A DNA stretch of 39,152 bases from a phage, in the sequence record PX759567.1; one strand, given 5' to 3'. The notes below the pieces were generated by a model, which saw only the letters and a list, made by a program, of their open reading frames with translations, did not search any database and was not told the DNA's origin. Below are positions 3,620 through 39,152 of this stretch, piece after piece. The translations under genes were made by a program, and so were the position numbers. Positions within the stretch are counted from its first letter, which is position 1; each line of letters opens with the position of its first letter.

Positions 3620-3874
3620 ATGTTAACACCTATTAACCAATTACTTAAGAACCCTAACGATATTCCAGATGTACCTCGTGCAACCGCTGAGTATCTACAG
3701 GTTCGATTCAACTATGCGTACCTCGAAGCGTCTGGTCATATAGGACTTATGCGTGCTAATGGTTGTAGTGAGGCCCACATCTTGGGTTTCATTCAGGGCC
3801 TACAGTATGCCTCTAACGTCATTGACGAGATTGAGTTACGCAAGGAACAACTAAGAGATGATGGGGAGGATTGA
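3620..3874 (+). CDS. 6.5: gene 6.5 protein
   Basis: 84-aa ORF, position and sequence as T7 gp6.5. Confidence 0.8.
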
Positions 3875-3878
3875 CACT

Positions 3879-4145
3879 ATGTGTTTCTCACCGAAAATTA
3901 AAACTCCGAAGATGGATACCAATCAGATTCGAGCCGTTGAGCCAGCGCCTCTGACCCAAGAAGTGTCAAGCGTGGAGTTCGGTGGGTCTTCTGATGAGAC
4001 GGATACCGAAGGCACCGAAGTGTCTGGACGCAAAGGCCTCAAGGTCGAACGCGATGATTCCGTAGCGAAGTCTAAAGCCAGTGGTACTGGTTCAGCTCGT
4101 ATGAAATCTTCAATCCGTAAGTCCGCATTTGGAGGCAAGAAGTGA
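3879..4145 (+). CDS. 6.7: gene 6.7 virion protein
   Basis: 88 aa from ATG 3879 (MCFSPKIKTPK...). Confidence 0.8.
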   Translation: MCFSPKIKTPKMDTNQIRAVEPAPLTQEVSSVEFGGSSDETDTEGTEVSGRKGLKVERDDSVAKSKASGTGSARMKSSIRKSAFGGKK

Positions 4146-4537
4146 TGTACGAAGTTATCGACTGTGAGAGTCGCTTTCCGGCAACCATTTGGTCAGTCCG
4201 TCAGTTGGGTCTCCCTAAGGGATTCTCTGGGGAAGTGACGTATAGTCTCTACGTAGACGAAGTTATGGATGCCTCTGGTCTTGAAGAGTCCTTTGTGGTT
4301 GACTCTCAGGGTCGAAAGGTTGCGTACTTTGCGTGGAGCGTTGGCGCTGATGCGCATCATAAAGGGGACATTCTGGACCTGAACAGCGTGGTGATTAATC
4401 CCTACGTCGAAGCTCCGGGAATCCAGAAGTTCCTGAGTAAGCACTTCAAGACGCTGGCGAAGCTGAACGATTGTGCTTGGGTGTCCCGTTGCAAACACGA
4501 AGATGGGACTTTGAGAATTTACTTTAAGGAGGTTTAA
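4142..4537 (+). CDS. 7: gene 7 virion/host-range protein
   Basis: 131-aa ORF between 6.7 and 7.3; GTG 4142 or ATG 4145 start. Confidence 0.75.
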   Translation: MMYEVIDCESRFPATIWSVRQLGLPKGFSGEVTYSLYVDEVMDASGLEESFVVDSQGRKVAYFAWSVGADAHHKGDILDLNSVVINPYVEAPGIQKFLSKHFKTLAKLNDCAWVSRCKHEDGTLRIYFKEV

Positions 4538-21971: not shown

Positions 21972-22454
21972 ATGTCTACTCAAGCCAATCGTAATGCGCT
22001 CGTAGTGGCGCAACTGAAAGGAGACTTCGTGGCGTTCCTGTTCGTCTTATGGAAGGCGTTAAACCTTCCTGTTCCAACTAAGTGTCAGATTGACATGGCT
22101 AAGGTGCTGGCGAATGGAGACAACAAGAAGTTCATCTTACAGGCTTTCCGTGGTATCGGTAAGTCGTTCATCACGTGTGCGTTCGTTGTGTGGTCCTTAT
22201 GGAGAGACCCTCAGTTGAAGATACTTATCGTATCAGCCTCTAAGGAACGTGCAGACGCTAACTCCATCTTTATTAAGAACATCATTGACCTGCTGCCGTT
22301 TCTCAGCGAGTTGAAGCCAAGACCCGGACAGCGTGACTCTGTGATTAGTTTCGACGTAGGTCCAGCTAAGCCTGACCACTCTCCTAGTGTGAAATCGGTA
22401 GGTATCACCGGTCAGTTAACTGGTAGCCGTGCTGACATTATTATTGCGGACGAT
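21972..22454 (+). CDS. 19: terminase large subunit gp19, exon 1
   Basis: N-terminal 161 codons matching T7 gp19 (...[15 protein letters not shown]); frame then hits GAA TAA inside the intron. Confidence 0.9.
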
Positions 22455-23290
22455 GAATAACCATGTCGTCCTTAAACCCATCTAAACAGGGAAACCCGGA
22501 GCCTAACATGGTATACGGCAATCCTGTGCTAAATGAGACAGCCATAAAGAGCCTTATAGGCCCCCTAAGCGTCTCTAAATGCCAAACGACTAAGTAGTAG
22601 GGCCAAGTGGCTCGAAACGGTGGGAGAGCATTTACGGATGCTCTAAGATATAGTCTCGTCTATGGTGAGAAGCCATAGCACCATTTATTACGTAACACAT
22701 AAGGAGTCTAACATGACCACTATGAAGAAAACTCGATATGAAGTAGGTTCAATCCATGAGTCCCCTAAAGGTCCGCTCAAGGTCCTCGAGTACATTCCGG
22801 GATATAAGGACCGCTCAACAGGTAAAAAAGTACATCCTCGCGTAGTAATTCGTATGATGAACACAGGGACTGTGCTCAACGTTCAAACCACGAATATACC
22901 AGATGGTAAGTTTGAGGACTATCGACGTACCACAGTTTACGGCATTGGGTATATAGGGTCTTCCATTAAAATCACCGCTAGAGGGACATTCATCCGGCGT
23001 GTGTATGACCTATGGGCCAACATGCTTAAGCGCGTGGTTCATGAGTATCAGGGAGTATCCGTGGACCCAAGATGGCTCAACTTTACGAATTTCTTGGCGA
23101 CTATTCCGGATGTTAAGGGATATGCTGCGTGGGAGCGTGGTGAGGATGTTCATCTGGATAAAGACCTAGCTGGGAATAAACGATACTCATTGGAGGACTG
23201 TGCGTTCATTCCAGCTAAAGACAACATTCGAGAGTCTTCGTTACGTAGGTGGCGTAAGAAATAACGAGCTTACGTTAAGATAATTATTCG
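22455..23290 (+). mobile_element. group I self-splicing intron (probably IA-type) within gene 19
   Basis: P1: exon GGACGAU (22448-22454) pairs with IGS GUCGUCC (22465-22471), U.G at splice site; ends in G; R/S-like core CGACUA (22587-22592) and AAGAUAUAGUC (22645-22655); P8-like hairpin 22625-22644; ligated exons restore D-D-V-E. Confidence 0.85.
22713..23264 (+). CDS. intron-encoded protein, family not recognised (putative homing endonuclease)
   Basis: 183 aa from ATG 22713 with AAGGAG 6 nt upstream (ORF track starts at 22662); lies 3' of the P7 strand; no canonical HNH, GIY-YIG or LAGLIDADG motif seen. Confidence 0.7.
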   Translation: MTTMKKTRYEVGSIHESPKGPLKVLEYIPGYKDRSTGKKVHPRVVIRMMNTGTVLNVQTTNIPDGKFEDYRRTTVYGIGYIGSSIKITARGTFIRRVYDLWANMLKRVVHEYQGVSVDPRWLNFTNFLATIPDVKGYAAWERGEDVHLDKDLAGNKRYSLEDCAFIPAKDNIRESSLRRWRKK

Positions 23291-24568
23291 GTGGAAATTC
23301 CATCTAACAGTGCAACTATGGGTGCCCGTGAGAAGTTATGGACTCTTGTTCAGGAGTTCGCTGCGTTACTTAAGCCGCTGCCTTCCTCTCGTGTTATCTA
23401 CCTTGGAACACCTCAGACCGAGATGACTCTCTATAAGGAACTTGAGGATAACCGTGGGTATACCACTATTATCTGGCCTGCTCTGTACCCAAGGACACAC
23501 GAAGAGAACCTCTATTACTCACAGCGTCTTGCTCCTATGCTACGTGCTGAGTACGATGAGAACCCTGAGGCACTCGCTGGGACTCCAACAGACCCTGTGC
23601 GCTTTGACCGTGATGACCTGCGTGAGCGTGAGTTGGAATACGGTAAGGCTGGCTTCACACTACAGTTCATGCTTAACCCGAACCTGAGTGATGCTGAGAA
23701 GTACCCTCTGAGGCTCCGTGACGCTATCGTAGCGGCCTTAGACTTAGAGAAGGCCCCAATGCATTACCAGTGGCTTCCGAACCGTCAGAACATCATTGAG
23801 GACCTTCCTAACGTTGGCCTTAAGGGTGATGACCTTCATACTTATCATGATTGCTCCAACAACTCAGGTCAGTACCAACAGAAGATTCTGGTCATTGACC
23901 CTAGTGGTCGCGGTAAGGACGAAACAGGTTACGCTGTGCTGTACACTCTGAACGGCTACATCTACCTAATGGAAGCTGGAGGTTTCCGTGATGGTTACTC
24001 CGATAAGACCCTTGAGTTGCTCGCTAAGAAAGCGAAGCAATGGGGAGTCCAGACGGTTGTCTACGAGAGTAACTTCGGTGACGGTATGTTTGGTAAGGTG
24101 TTCAGTCCTATCCTTCTTAAACACCACAACTGTGCAATGGAAGAGATTCGTGCTCGTGGTATGAAGGAGATGCGTATTTGTGATACCCTTGAGCCAGTCA
24201 TGCAGACTCACCGCCTTGTCATTCGTGATGAGGTCATTAGGGCCGACTACCAGTCCGCTCGTGACGTAGACGGTAAGCATGACGTTAAGTACTCACTGTT
24301 CTACCAGATGACCCGTATCACTCGCGAGAAAGGTGCTCTGGCTCATGATGACCGATTGGATGCCCTTGCGTTAGGCATTGAGTATCTCCGTGAGTCCATG
24401 CAGTTGGATTCCGTTAAGGTCGAAGGTGAAGTAATTGCTGACTTCCTTGAGGAACACATGATGCGCCCTACAGTGTCTGCTACCCACATCATTGAGATGT
24501 CTGTAGGAGGAGTTGATGTGTACTCTGAGGACGATGAGGGTTACGGTACGTCTTTCATTGAGTGGTAA
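23291..24568 (+). CDS. 19: terminase large subunit gp19, exon 2
   Basis: translation (V)[22 protein letters not shown]...SFIEW continues the T7 gp19 sequence; the GTG at 23291 is codon V, not a start. Confidence 0.9.
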
Positions 24569-24605
24569 TTTATGAGGCCAAGGAAGGCCACTTTAAGGAG
24601 GTAAT

Positions 24606-25067
24606 ATGATAAACAAGAAGAAGTATGTTGTCGATAAGGAGACTGGTTGCTGGAACTTTAAGGGATGCAAGACTAAGACAGGCTATGGTCGTCTCCGTGT
24701 AAATGGAGTCCATTGGATGGCTCACAGGTATTCCCTGAGTTGTCATCTAGGTAGACCGATAGCTGATGGAATGGTTGTGATGCACCTTTGTGATAACCCG
24801 TCATGTGTTAACCCTGAGCACCTTAAGGAAGGGACTCAGAAGGAGAATATGGATGACTGTAAGGCCAAAGGTAGGATGTACAGACCGGGGGCCACAGGCA
24901 AACCAAAGACCAGTACGGCGAAGGTTATCTATCACGATGACTGGCGTAAAGACCAAGTTATCCGCTACCATGTACGCTGGAAATGGAAGCCGTCTCGTAT
25001 TGCTGAGAAGATGAGACTATCTATAACGTGGGTTAAGAGGGTCTTAGAGGAGTACGTAAGTCATTGA
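24606..25067 (+). CDS. free-standing HNH homing endonuclease (HNH_3-like)
   Basis: 153-aa ORF, strong RBS TAAGGAGG; motifs GCWNF..TGYGRL..AHRYS..HLCDNPSCVNPEHL..EN; no counterpart at this locus in T7. Confidence 0.85.
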   Translation: MINKKKYVVDKETGCWNFKGCKTKTGYGRLRVNGVHWMAHRYSLSCHLGRPIADGMVVMHLCDNPSCVNPEHLKEGTQKENMDDCKAKGRMYRPGATGKPKTSTAKVIYHDDWRKDQVIRYHVRWKWKPSRIAEKMRLSITWVKRVLEEYVSH

Positions 25068-25119
25068 TATTTGAAAATAGTGAAACAGGTCTAAATGTAT
25101 GTTTTTAAAGGCTGGAATC

Positions 25120-25142
25120 TAATTCGACTCACTATAGGGGAG
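25120..25142 (+). promoter_or_regulatory. T7 RNAP promoter phiOR
   Basis: TAATTCGACTCACTATAGGGGAG, two mismatches to consensus. Confidence 0.75.
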
Positions 25143-25245
25143 AGCCTACCTAAAGATAACTATAAGACTTACTATCAGACTTAAAGTGTCCTATAAGGTA
25201 GGTTGTTATTATTGTTAATACAACCAACATAAAGGGAGGAGACTC

Positions 25246-25395
25246 ATGTTCCGCTTATTGTTGACCTTGTTGCGGCATAGAGTCACCTACCGATTTCTTG
25301 TGGTACTTTGTGCTGCCCTTGGGTACGCATCTCTTACTGGAGACCTCAGTTCACTGGAGTCTACCGTTTGCTCTATACTCACTTGTAGCGATTAA
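25246..25395 (+). CDS. 19.5: gene 19.5 protein
   Basis: 49-aa ORF MFRLLLTLLRHRVTYRFLVVLCAALGYASLTGDLSSLESTVCSILTCSD. Confidence 0.8.
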   Translation: MFRLLLTLLRHRVTYRFLVVLCAALGYASLTGDLSSLESTVCSILTCSD

Positions 25396-25635
25396 GGTCT
25401 TCCTGACCGACTGATGGCTCACCGAGGGATTCAGCGGTATGATTGCATCACACCACTTCATCCCTATAGAGTCAAGTCCTAAGGTATACCCTATAAAGAG
25501 CCTCTAATGGTCTATCCTAAGGTCTATACCTAAAGATAGGCCATCCTATCAGTGTCACCTAAAGAGGGTCTAAGAGAGGGCCTAAGGAGTTCCTAGAGGG
25601 TCCTTTAAAATATACCATAAAAATCTGAGTGACTA

Positions 25636-38880: not shown

Positions 38881-39152
38881 ATGATCGTTTCTGACATCGA
38901 AGCTAACGCCCTCTTAGAGAGCGTCACTAAGTTCCACTGCGGGGTTATCTACGACTACTCCACCGCTGAGTACGTAAGCTACCGTCCGGGTGACTTCGGT
39001 GCGTATCTGGATGCGCTGGAAGCCGAGGTTGCACGAGGCGGTCTTATTGTGTTCCACAACGGTCACAAGTATGACGTTCCTGCATTGACCAAACTGGCAA
39101 AGTTGCAATTGAACCGAGAGTTCCACCTTCCTCGTGAGAACTGTATAGACAC
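38881..39152 (+). CDS. 5: DNA polymerase gp5, 5' portion (continues at window position 1)
   Basis: MIVSDIEANALLESVTKFHCGVIYDYSTAEYVSYRPGDFGAYLDALEAEVARGGLIVFHNGHKYDVPALTKLAKLQLNREFHLPRENCID; last 2 nt plus window nt 1 form codon ACC (T). Confidence 0.95.
   Translation, partial: MIVSDIEANALLESVTKFHCGVIYDYSTAEYVSYRPGDFGAYLDALEAEVARGGLIVFHNGHKYDVPALTKLAKLQLNREFHLPRENCID

What the first reader, a model, noticed from the sequence alone, without database searches (positions are those of the whole stretch)
24606..25067. Free-standing HNH endonuclease gene between gene 19 and phiOR, next to the intron-containing gene
A 153-aa ORF with a clear HNH_3-type signature (GCWNF, TGYGRL, HLCDNPSCVNPEHL, EN) and a strong RBS occupies the gene 19 to phiOR spacer, which as I recall is only about 100 bp in T7. 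It lies about 2.1 kb downstream of the intron insertion site. Collaborative homing, in which a free-standing endonuclease mobilises a nearby intron, is documented in other phages. Here the intron has its own ORF, so two independent selfish elements flanking the terminase gene is equally plausible.
Basis: partly seen in the sequence, partly recalled or inferred. Interest (0 to 1): 0.55.

Follow-up and report, generated by a model that had tools for sequence, protein, structure and literature searches.

The report
Free-standing HNH endonuclease gene, T7-like phage
The ORF is a real, intact HNH homing-type endonuclease gene sitting just after the terminase gene of a T7-like phage, but the same gene at the same spot is already annotated in phage 13a (gene 19.4) and about thirty other phages, so it is an ordinary selfish element rather than a discovery.

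Summary
Window 24606-25067 (+) encodes a 153-aa protein with an AAGGAGGT ribosome-binding site. It scores above the Pfam HNH_3 cut-off, and its catalytic and Cys/His residues are intact and invariant across 38 homologues. The predicted layout is a His-Me-finger nuclease, a disordered linker and a C-terminal helix-turn-helix.

It is not new. It is gp19.4 of phage 13a (96.7% aa) at the same locus, and it is annotated as an HNH or homing endonuclease in about 31 of 181 related phage records.

Comparison of 88 loci shows a sharply bounded 648-nt block (24575-25222). The block holds the HNH gene, a diverged phiOR promoter and its leader, and it replaces 229 nt of T7. It is the only local difference that tracks HNH presence. 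HNH-carrying and HNH-lacking phages are interleaved by gene 19 similarity. dN/dS is 0.03-0.11. A different HNH gene occupies the same spacer in another clade.

The best reading is an active free-standing homing endonuclease gene whose target lies in the T7-type intergenic block. Cleavage itself is inferred, not shown.

Collaborative homing with the gene 19 intron is disfavoured:
- HNH-carrying, intron-less phages have the same intron insertion site as T7.
- The intron's recent transfer tract stops 1.2 kb short of the HNH.

The parts
24575..25222 (+). HNH-linked variable block (648 nt) that replaces T7 39137-39365 (229 nt). It holds the RBS, the HNH ORF, a 52-nt spacer, a phiOR-type promoter and a diverged leader.
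   Evidence: Homology to HNH-lacking phages breaks 6 nt after the gene 19 stop and resumes 23 nt before the 19.5 ATG. These two junction columns are the only ones with complete HNH+/HNH- association across gene 19 and 700 nt downstream. The post-HNH 158 nt is found as a near-full-length match (97-100% of the query) only in the 31 records that also carry the HNH.
24595..24602 (+). Shine-Dalgarno sequence AAGGAGGT of the HNH gene
   Evidence: Read directly from the sequence. It is conserved in all HNH+ alleles.
24606..25067 (+). HNH endonuclease ORF (153 aa plus stop), the orthologue of phage 13a gene 19.4
   Evidence: (96.7% aa to 13a gp19.4).
24606..24884 (+). N-terminal His-Me-finger (HNH_3) nuclease domain, aa 1-93. 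H60, N69 and N81 are the predicted catalytic and structural residues. C15, C62, C67 and H72 are probable zinc ligands.
   Evidence: Pfam HNH_3 matches aa 39-82 and zf-His_Me_endon matches aa 55-83. C15, H40, H60, C62, D63, N64, C67, N69, P70, H72 and N81 are invariant in 38 homologues. The model has pLDDT >90 with beta 56-60, beta 73-77 and helix 78-88. The top PDB matches are I-HmuI and I-PpoI. dN/dS is 0.03-0.11.
24885..24929 (+). Flexible linker, aa 94-108
   Evidence: pLDDT is below 50 for residues 94-108. The alignment is indel-rich in this segment.
24930..25064 (+). C-terminal three-helix helix-turn-helix DNA-binding domain, aa 109-153
   Evidence: The model has helices 111-125, 129-136 and 140-152. 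Foldseek matches the DeoR DNA-binding domain and sigma region 4 at probability 0.99-1.0 and rmsd about 1.5 A. HTH_23 is weak here (E=0.0085) but above the Pfam cut-off in the 147-aa allele P0006.
25120..25142 (+). phiOR-type T7 RNA polymerase promoter variant TAATTCGACTCACTATAGGGGAGA, with predicted +1 at 25137
   Evidence: Pattern search. The equivalent site is annotated as phiOR in 13a.
21972..22454 (+). Gene 19 (terminase large subunit) exon 1 (context)
22455..23290 (+). Group I intron in the Walker B codons of gene 19 (ADD|VE), carrying its own ORF at 22713-23264 (context, a separate element)
   Evidence: Rfam Intron_gpI 49 bits, E=1e-10. The flanking exons are contiguous in T7 and 13a. 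The ORF matches PHROG 2081 at E=7e-44.
23291..24568 (+). Gene 19 exon 2 (context)
25246..25395 (+). Gene 19.5 (context; the right flank of the block)

Best explanation
This is a free-standing homing endonuclease gene of the HNH (His-Me finger) class. It is the orthologue of phage 13a gene 19.4 and lives in the gene 19 / gene 19.5 spacer of T7-like phages.

It has no promoter of its own, so it is probably made from late T7-RNAP read-through transcripts together with the terminase. The protein is a monomeric, modular enzyme: a zinc-stabilised HNH nuclease head, a flexible linker and a helix-turn-helix that reads the DNA.

The proposed mechanism applies when an HNH-carrying and an HNH-lacking phage infect the same cell.
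1. The enzyme nicks or cuts the HNH-lacking genome in or at the edges of its T7-type intergenic block (T7 39137-39365).
2. Recombinational repair from the HNH-carrying genome copies in the whole 648-nt block, meaning the HNH gene plus its own phiOR and leader.
3. The carrier genome is immune because that block is replaced or diverged.

Shown here: gene identity, intact active-site residues, modular fold, purifying selection, sharp presence/absence boundaries, patchy distribution, and reuse of the site by another HNH gene. Inferred: cleavage activity, target location, nick versus double-strand cut, and mobility. The intron in gene 19 is a second, independently mobile element.
For: Identity and integrity:
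- Pfam HNH_3 is above its cut-off and PHROG 6254 gives 8e-63.
- H60, N69 and N81 and the residues C15, C62, C67 and H72 are invariant in 38 homologues.
- The AlphaFold model has mean pLDDT 85.6, with a beta-beta-alpha core, a disordered linker and a three-helix HTH.
- The best PDB matches are the homing endonucleases I-HmuI and I-PpoI for the head, and DeoR and sigma-4 HTH domains for the tail.
- dN/dS is 0.07 against 13a and 0.03-0.11 for the nuclease domain against five other alleles, with dS up to 1.3.

Behaviour as a mobile element:
- The gene is present in about 31 of 181 related records and absent from T7, phiA1122 and others whose flanks are 95-97% identical.
- Both junctions are exact to the base.
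- No HNH-linked substitution occurs anywhere in gene 19 or in the 700 nt downstream, apart from the two junction columns.
- The downstream phiOR and leader are found as a near-full-length match only in HNH-carrying records and are only weakly similar to T7's.
- HNH+ and HNH- phages are interleaved by gene 19 similarity.
- Diverged orthologues (47-55% aa) sit at the same spot in Helsettvirus and Berlinvirus-type phages.
- A different HNH_3 gene, 31% identical over the 68-aa core, occupies the same spacer in six loci of another clade.

Annotation: GenBank submitters already call it an HNH or homing endonuclease.
Against: No cleavage assay or cross exists for this protein or any close homologue that I could find. 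The target site is not identified. Strong purifying selection over a deep divergence (dS up to 1.3) fits continuing mobility but fits a benefit to the phage equally well. The block is not a clean insertion: phiOR and its leader come along in diverged form. An old allelic replacement by ordinary recombination, with no endonuclease drive, would give the same junctions. No precisely empty site with the 13a-type phiOR was found.
Confidence: 0.75

Rival explanations
1. Trans-homing or hitch-hiking. The free-standing HNH cuts near the 3' end of gene 19 in naive phages, and long co-conversion tracts drag the intron (1.3 kb away) along. On this reading the two elements spread as a linked pair. The analogue is T4 MobE mobilising the defunct I-TevIII intron (PMC2790892), or collaborative homing (PMC3984707).
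For: Every intron-bearing Studiervirinae genome seen also carries the HNH in the 19/19.5 spacer. These are the Vi06 clade, PDP351P2, this window and the two fPS Helsettvirus genomes whose 19/19.5 spacer was inspected (fPS-54-ocr and fPS-26). Homologues of the intron ORF are present in all the fPS records. Only about 17% of Teseptimavirus records carry the HNH. The intron ORF has no Pfam nuclease hit, and its putative catalytic His is conserved in only 23 of 32 homologues.
Against: The intron insertion site of HNH+ intron- phages is identical to T7's, so the HNH cannot target it without cutting its own genome. The window/PDP351P2 near-identity tract (7 mismatches across 22230-23335) is centred on the intron and ends 1.2 kb before the HNH, whose 3' half differs between the two phages. 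Intron-bearing alleles carry their own cluster of synonymous changes within 12 nt of the insertion site, as expected for an intron-specific endonuclease. A related intron exists without a downstream HNH in Gajwadongvirus vB_Kp_Z1. Many HNH+ phages lack the intron. The co-occurring lineages are few and physically linked.
Confidence: 0.1
2. The gene is a retained, phage-beneficial nuclease rather than a mobile element. One example would be a weapon that cuts the phiOR/packaging region of co-infecting T7-type competitors (marker exclusion without net gene drive). Another would be a DNA-binding regulator acting on the adjacent phiOR.
For: dN/dS is very low over a deep divergence. The HNH is always coupled to a particular diverged phiOR and leader. 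Orthologues are kept at the same locus across genera.
Against: The patchy distribution among near-identical relatives and the reuse of the site by a different HNH gene are the signature of selfish elements. Exclusion and homing are two outcomes of the same cleavage, so this differs little in mechanism. The catalytic residues are fully conserved, which argues against a purely regulatory role.
Confidence: 0.1
3. The gene is an accessory HNH subunit of the DNA-packaging machine, like HK97 gp74, needed for terminase cutting of concatemers.
For: It lies immediately next to the large terminase gene and about 0.5 kb from the genome end. The closest structural match, I-HmuI, is known from the literature to be a nicking enzyme (my own knowledge, not tested here).
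Against: It is absent from T7, phiA1122 and about 150 of 181 close relatives, whose terminases are 98-99% identical and which package normally. It belongs to the HNH_3 family and has an HTH specificity domain typical of homing enzymes. It is not the HK97-type HNH found beside small terminase genes of cos phages (the family distinction is from my own knowledge).
Confidence: 0.03

Closest known systems
Phage 13a gene 19.4 product (YP_002003987.1, 'HNH endonuclease'), with its orthologues Vi06_50 ('7.7'), Yanou ORF54 and HZ2R8 gp05
   Same: Same locus between gene 19 and phiOR. 96.7% aa identity to 13a, 82% to Vi06 and about 70% to the 147-aa alleles. Same block boundaries.
   Different: The window combines a 13a-type HNH and phiOR with a PDP351P2-type gene 19 intron, a mix not seen in the phage database. 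None of these orthologues appears to have been characterised biochemically.
I-HmuI (PDB 1U3E), the intron-encoded HNH homing endonuclease of Bacillus phage SPO1
   Same: Best structural match for the nuclease head (Foldseek probability 1.0, E=5.5e-3). Same modular plan of an HNH head plus a C-terminal helix-turn-helix DNA-binding module.
   Different: Only 24% identity over 94 columns, and no sequence-level PDB hit. I-HmuI is intron-encoded and lacks the Cys/His zinc cluster seen here. Whether this enzyme nicks, as I-HmuI is known to do (my own knowledge), was not tested.
T7 gp7.7 and related free-standing HNH_3 genes of T7-like phages
   Same: Same Pfam family. About 40% identity over aa 15-104 (H112-H114). 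Free-standing genes in intergenic positions.
   Different: Different locus (between genes 7.3 and 8) and a different C-terminal region. The window has no paralogue of the 19.4 gene elsewhere.
T4 free-standing homing endonucleases (Seg and Mob families, e.g. MobE; PMC2790892, PMC2988022)
   Same: Free-standing endonuclease genes lodged between conserved genes, patchily distributed among relatives, and spreading with flanking DNA by co-conversion.
   Different: Different phage family. Seg enzymes are GIY-YIG. Homing is demonstrated experimentally for the T4 enzymes and only inferred here.

Membership tests
HNH / His-Me finger nucleases (Pfam HNH_3, PF13392) | Profile match above the curated gathering score | tested here: met
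   36.9 bits against a cut-off of 24.8, E=2.7e-9, aa 39-82. PHROG 6254 E=7.9e-63.
HNH / His-Me finger nucleases (Pfam HNH_3, PF13392) | The catalytic His (general base), the structural Asn and the metal-binding Asn/His are present | tested here: met
   H60, N69 and N81 are present and invariant in 38 homologues, as are D63, N64 and H72. Assignment of roles is by motif position, not by experiment.
HNH / His-Me finger nucleases (Pfam HNH_3, PF13392) | A beta-beta-alpha metal-finger fold | tested here: met
   The model has strands 56-60 and 73-77 followed by helix 78-88 at pLDDT >90. The top Foldseek hits are I-HmuI and I-PpoI.
Free-standing homing endonuclease genes | Presence/absence polymorphism at one locus among close relatives, with sharp boundaries | tested here: met
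   Present in about 31 of 181 records. Junctions are base-exact at 24575 and 25222. HNH+ and HNH- phages are interleaved.
Free-standing homing endonuclease genes | A sequence-reading DNA-binding module joined to the nuclease | tested here: met
   A C-terminal three-helix HTH follows a disordered linker.
Free-standing homing endonuclease genes | Site-specific cleavage of the allele that lacks the gene, with resistance of the carrier allele | not testable with these tools
   Indirect evidence only: the sole fixed local difference between carriers and non-carriers is the block itself.
Free-standing homing endonuclease genes | Biased (super-Mendelian) inheritance in mixed infection | not testable with these tools
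   This needs phage crosses.
Collaborative homing (free-standing endonuclease plus intron sharing one target) | The endonuclease target coincides with the intron insertion site | tested here: not met
   The insertion site in HNH+ intron- phages is identical to that in HNH- phages, which would mean self-cleavage. This is an indirect test.
Collaborative homing (free-standing endonuclease plus intron sharing one target) | The intron lacks its own endonuclease ORF | tested here: not met
   The intron carries a conserved 183-aa ORF (PHROG 2081, E=7e-44, 59 homologues) with a C-terminal beta-beta-alpha HLDKD...N motif. Its nuclease activity is unproven.
Terminase-associated HNH packaging factors (HK97 gp74 type) | Conserved in all phages that share the terminase type, and required for packaging | tested here: not met
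   Absent from T7, phiA1122 and most relatives, whose gp19 is 98-99% identical.

The most novel reading that the evidence does not exclude
The HNH and its private, diverged phiOR and leader may form one functional module. On this reading the endonuclease attacks the T7-type phiOR and right-end processing region of co-infecting competitors. That would cripple their concatemer maturation while converting them, and its presence would favour establishment or co-spread of the gene 19 intron. This would explain why every intron-bearing Studiervirinae genome seen here also carries the HNH.
Probability: 0.1. Interest if true: 0.5.

Novelty: already known. Interest (0 to 1): 0.2.

Why it matters
The practical value is in annotation and comparative genomics. 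The gene 19/19.5 spacer of T7-like phages is a recurrent landing pad for HNH endonuclease genes, and the element carries its own phiOR. Whole-genome phylogenies and engineered T7 chassis should therefore treat 24575-25222 as a mobile block.

The analysis yields a concrete prediction: the enzyme should cut T7 DNA within or at the edges of 39137-39365.

The neighbouring unannotated intron in the terminase Walker B codons is the more noteworthy feature. Public records such as Vi06, the CHRF phages and the fPS phages list gene 19 as a pseudogene or as two genes.

Tried and rejected
- A sequence search of the PDB with the protein found nothing at E<=1.
- Rfam at gathering thresholds found nothing in the whole window. 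The intron appears only in E-value mode, at 49 bits against a gathering score of 50.
- I looked for HNH-linked substitutions in gene 19 and downstream that could mark a protected target site. There were none apart from the junction columns.
- I looked for a precisely empty site carrying the 13a-type phiOR. None exists in the phage database.
- A 16-nt direct repeat at the ends of gene 19 and of the HNH ORF (13 of 16 matches) is about what chance gives and is not conserved in other alleles, so I rejected it as an insertion scar.
- No sigma-70 promoter or intrinsic terminator signal exceeded the shuffle expectation around the gene.
- Literature searches for 13a gp19.4, for a Vi06 intron, for Teseptimavirus homing endonucleases and for terminase introns in Autographiviridae found no characterisation of this gene. 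One genome paper notes only that homing endonucleases among T7-like late genes are unusual (PMC5923468).
- A Foldseek search with the intron ORF model gave no nuclease match, only SH3/Tudor-like barrels for its N-terminal part.

Full report
**1. The observation**

The window is a circularly permuted T7-like genome (Teseptimavirus). It is about 94% identical in nucleotides to phage 13a and to T7 over 25 kb. Gene 0.3 follows gene 19.5 after the collapsed terminal repeat.

The ORF at 24606-25067 (+) exists and encodes 153 aa. It is preceded by AAGGAGGT at 24595-24602. The protein scores 36.9 bits against Pfam HNH_3 (cut-off 24.8) and matches the zinc-loop family zf-His_Me_endon below its threshold. 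It matches PHROG 6254 'HNH endonuclease' end to end at E=7.9e-63.

The ORF lies between the gene 19 stop (24566-24568) and a phiOR-type promoter, TAATTCGACTCACTATAGGGGAGA, at 25120-25142. In T7 the same interval is about 100 nt: gene 19 ends at 39130 and phiOR +1 is at 39229.

**2. It is already in the databases**

A megablast of 24400-25400 finds the full arrangement in phage 13a at 94.8% nt identity. There the ORF is annotated as gene 19.4, 'HNH endonuclease', and is followed by an annotated phiOR and gene 19.5. The protein is 96.7% identical to 13a gp19.4.

Thirty records cover at least 80% of the query. One more, PHB20, is split by its record ends. Together that is about 31 of the 181 records that match the flanks. 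Annotators call the gene 'HNH endonuclease', 'predicted endonuclease / 7.7' (Vi06), 'putative homing endonuclease' (JeanTinguely) or 'homing endonuclease' (Rambo). I found no paper that characterises it.

**3. The protein**

An alignment of 38 full-length homologues has these invariant residues: C15, G26, G28, A39, H40, H60, C62, D63, N64, C67, N69, P70, H72, N81 and K88. This means the HNH triad (H60, N69, N81 by motif position) and a Cys/His cluster are intact.

AlphaFold2 on that alignment gives mean pLDDT 85.6. The model has three parts:
- a beta-rich head with strands 56-60 and 73-77 followed by helix 78-88, the beta-beta-alpha metal finger;
- a disordered linker at residues 94-108;
- a three-helix bundle at residues 111-152.

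Foldseek against the PDB ranks the homing endonucleases I-HmuI (probability 1.0) and I-PpoI first for the head. It ranks DeoR, sigma-70 region 4 and resolvase-type helix-turn-helix domains (probability 0.99-1.0, rmsd about 1.5 A) for the tail. The 147-aa alleles score above the Pfam cut-off for HTH_23 in the same region, whereas the window's own tail is weak (E=0.0085). The protein therefore has the nuclease-linker-HTH plan of modular homing endonucleases.

Selection is strongly purifying. dN/dS is 0.07 against 13a. For the nuclease domain it is 0.03-0.11 against Vi06, PDP351P2, Yanou, HZ2R8 and two metagenomic alleles, with dS up to 1.3. This is not a decaying pseudogene.

**4. Anatomy of the element**

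I compared 88 loci: eight from GenBank records and 80 from IMG/VR.
- **Left junction.** Every genome shares ...GAGTGGTRATTTATG. Carriers then continue AGGCCAAGGAAGGCCAC..., and non-carriers continue CAYTRGGACTGCATAGGG....
- **Right junction.** Homology resumes at ACCAACATAAAGGGAGG, 23 nt before the 19.5 ATG.
- **The block.** It therefore spans 24575-25222 (648 nt) and replaces 229 nt of T7 (39137-39365).
- **Association scan.** Across all of gene 19 and 700 nt downstream, only the two junction columns associate completely with HNH presence.

The block is not a bare insertion. The 158 nt after the HNH stop, which include phiOR, are found as a near-full-length match (97-100% of the query) only in the 31 records that also carry the HNH; 17 other records show short partial matches. 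The leader after phiOR is recognisably but weakly similar to T7's (z about 2.3 against shuffles, with indels). The 75 nt that precede phiOR in T7 have no counterpart. The element therefore travels with its own version of this promoter.

Within Teseptimavirus there are three allele classes: the 13a type, the Vi06 type (82% aa) and a 147-aa type (about 70% aa). The nuclease half is 88-98% identical in nucleotides across classes. The HTH half plus the phiOR leader drops to 51-78%.

**5. Distribution**

By gene 19 similarity, carriers and non-carriers are interleaved. For example, the nearest gene 19 relatives of 13a are non-carriers, and the nearest relative of HZ2R8 is a non-carrier.

Diverged orthologues (47-55% aa) occupy the same spacer in Helsettvirus and Berlinvirus-type phages. 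In six loci of a clade whose gp19 is about 75% identical, the same spacer holds a different 144-aa HNH_3 gene that starts 13 nt after the gene 19 stop. That gene shares only 31% identity over the 68-aa core and lacks the Cys cluster. The spacer is thus a recurrent landing site for endonuclease genes.

**6. Mechanism**

The best-supported model is classical intron-less homing.
1. Late read-through transcription expresses the enzyme. No sigma-70 promoter or terminator signal exceeds the shuffle expectation near the gene, and the nearest T7 promoter is downstream.
2. In a mixed infection the enzyme cleaves the naive allele.
3. Repair copies in the block.

Carriers must be immune, and the only fixed local difference is the block itself. 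The target is therefore predicted to lie within T7 39137-39365 or across a junction (inference). The structural similarity to I-HmuI, which I know from the literature to be a nickase, leaves open whether this enzyme nicks or makes a double-strand cut. Cleavage, target and drive are all inferred. Gene identity, integrity, anatomy and population pattern are shown.

**7. Relation to the intron**

Gene 19 is interrupted at 22455-23290. The exons abut exactly as in T7 (ADD|VE, the Walker B region). The 5' exon ends in T and the insert ends in G. Rfam Intron_gpI scores 49 bits, E=1e-10, one bit below the gathering score.

Three observations argue against functional coupling with the HNH.
- HNH-carrying, intron-less phages have an insertion site identical to T7's. 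Intron-bearing alleles have their own cluster of synonymous changes within 12 nt of the site.
- Against PDP351P2, the window has only 7 mismatches between 22230 and 23335, compared with about 4-5% divergence outside. That tract ends 1.2 kb before the HNH, and the 3' half of the HNH differs between the two phages. This looks like a recent intron-only transfer.
- A related intron interrupts the terminase gene of Klebsiella Gajwadongvirus vB_Kp_Z1, which has no HNH downstream.

One observation points the other way. All intron-bearing Studiervirinae seen here also carry the spacer HNH: the Vi06 clade, PDP351P2, the window, and the two fPS Helsettvirus genomes whose spacer I inspected. The intron ORF homologue is present in all the fPS records. 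The intron ORF has no Pfam nuclease domain, and its putative catalytic His is conserved in only 23 of 32 homologues. I therefore keep a MobE-like hitch-hiking model (PMC2790892) at about 10%.

**8. Verdict**

This is a real, intact and probably active free-standing HNH homing endonuclease gene, and it is already annotated at this locus in many T7-like phages. Novelty is low and I score interest at 0.2. The added value is the exact block boundaries, the co-travelling phiOR, the site-reuse evidence and a testable target prediction.

Noticed in passing
window 22455-23290 (gene 19); also L003, L004, L089, L090, L091: A group I intron interrupts the terminase large-subunit gene in its Walker B codons (ADD|VE). 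Public records do not annotate it as an intron. Vi06 lists gene 19 as a pseudo misc_feature. The CHRF and fPS phages and vB_Kp_Z1 list two terminase or packaging CDSs with an ORF between them. Rfam scores 49 bits against a gathering score of 50.
   Followed up: partly
window 22713-23264 (intron ORF, 183 aa): The ORF belongs to a family with no Pfam domain (59 homologues, PHROG 2081 'HNH'). A confident model (pLDDT 90) shows an N-terminal SH3/Tudor-like barrel and a C-terminal beta-beta-alpha element carrying H147-LDKD...N171. H147 is conserved in only 23 of 32 homologues, and no nuclease came up in the PDB fold search. Its nuclease identity is provisional.
   Followed up: partly
window 22230-23335 vs L004 (PDP351P2): There are only 7 mismatches in about 1.1 kb, covering the intron plus about 225 nt of exon 1 and 45 nt of exon 2, against 4-5% divergence outside. 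This looks like a recent intron homing event with a short, asymmetric co-conversion tract.
   Followed up: yes
L048, L057, L058, L063, L068, L088 at about 3782-4216: A different 144-aa HNH_3 gene starts 13 nt after the gene 19 stop in a clade whose gp19 is about 75% identical. It has no Cys cluster, and its C-terminal half may be AP2-like (by eye, not tested). It shares only 31% identity with the window protein over the 68-aa core. In L058 it is truncated to 123 aa.
   Followed up: partly
L090 (Yersinia phage fPS-26) 1913-5279: Gene 19 of the Helsettvirus fPS phages is surrounded by three endonuclease-like ORFs: g045 ('homing endonuclease') just before it, g047 inside the intron, and g049, the orthologue of the window HNH, just after it.
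   Followed up: no
window 24585-24597 and 25180-25192: A 13-nt inverted repeat (12 of 13 complementary) lies near both ends of the HNH block. The left arm abuts the HNH ribosome-binding site and the right arm is in the phiOR leader. About 0.2 such pairs are expected by chance, and type-B alleles show lower complementarity and no covariation.
   Followed up: partly
window 24850-25222 vs L004, L005, L013, L017: Two haplotypes of the HTH-coding half plus the phiOR leader (51-78% nt identity) are joined to a conserved nuclease half (88-98%). The predicted recognition helix (WVKRV) is conserved between them.
   Followed up: partly
window 24566-24568: The gene 19 stop codon is TAA in the window and TGA in all 24 other Teseptimavirus loci compared.
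   Followed up: no
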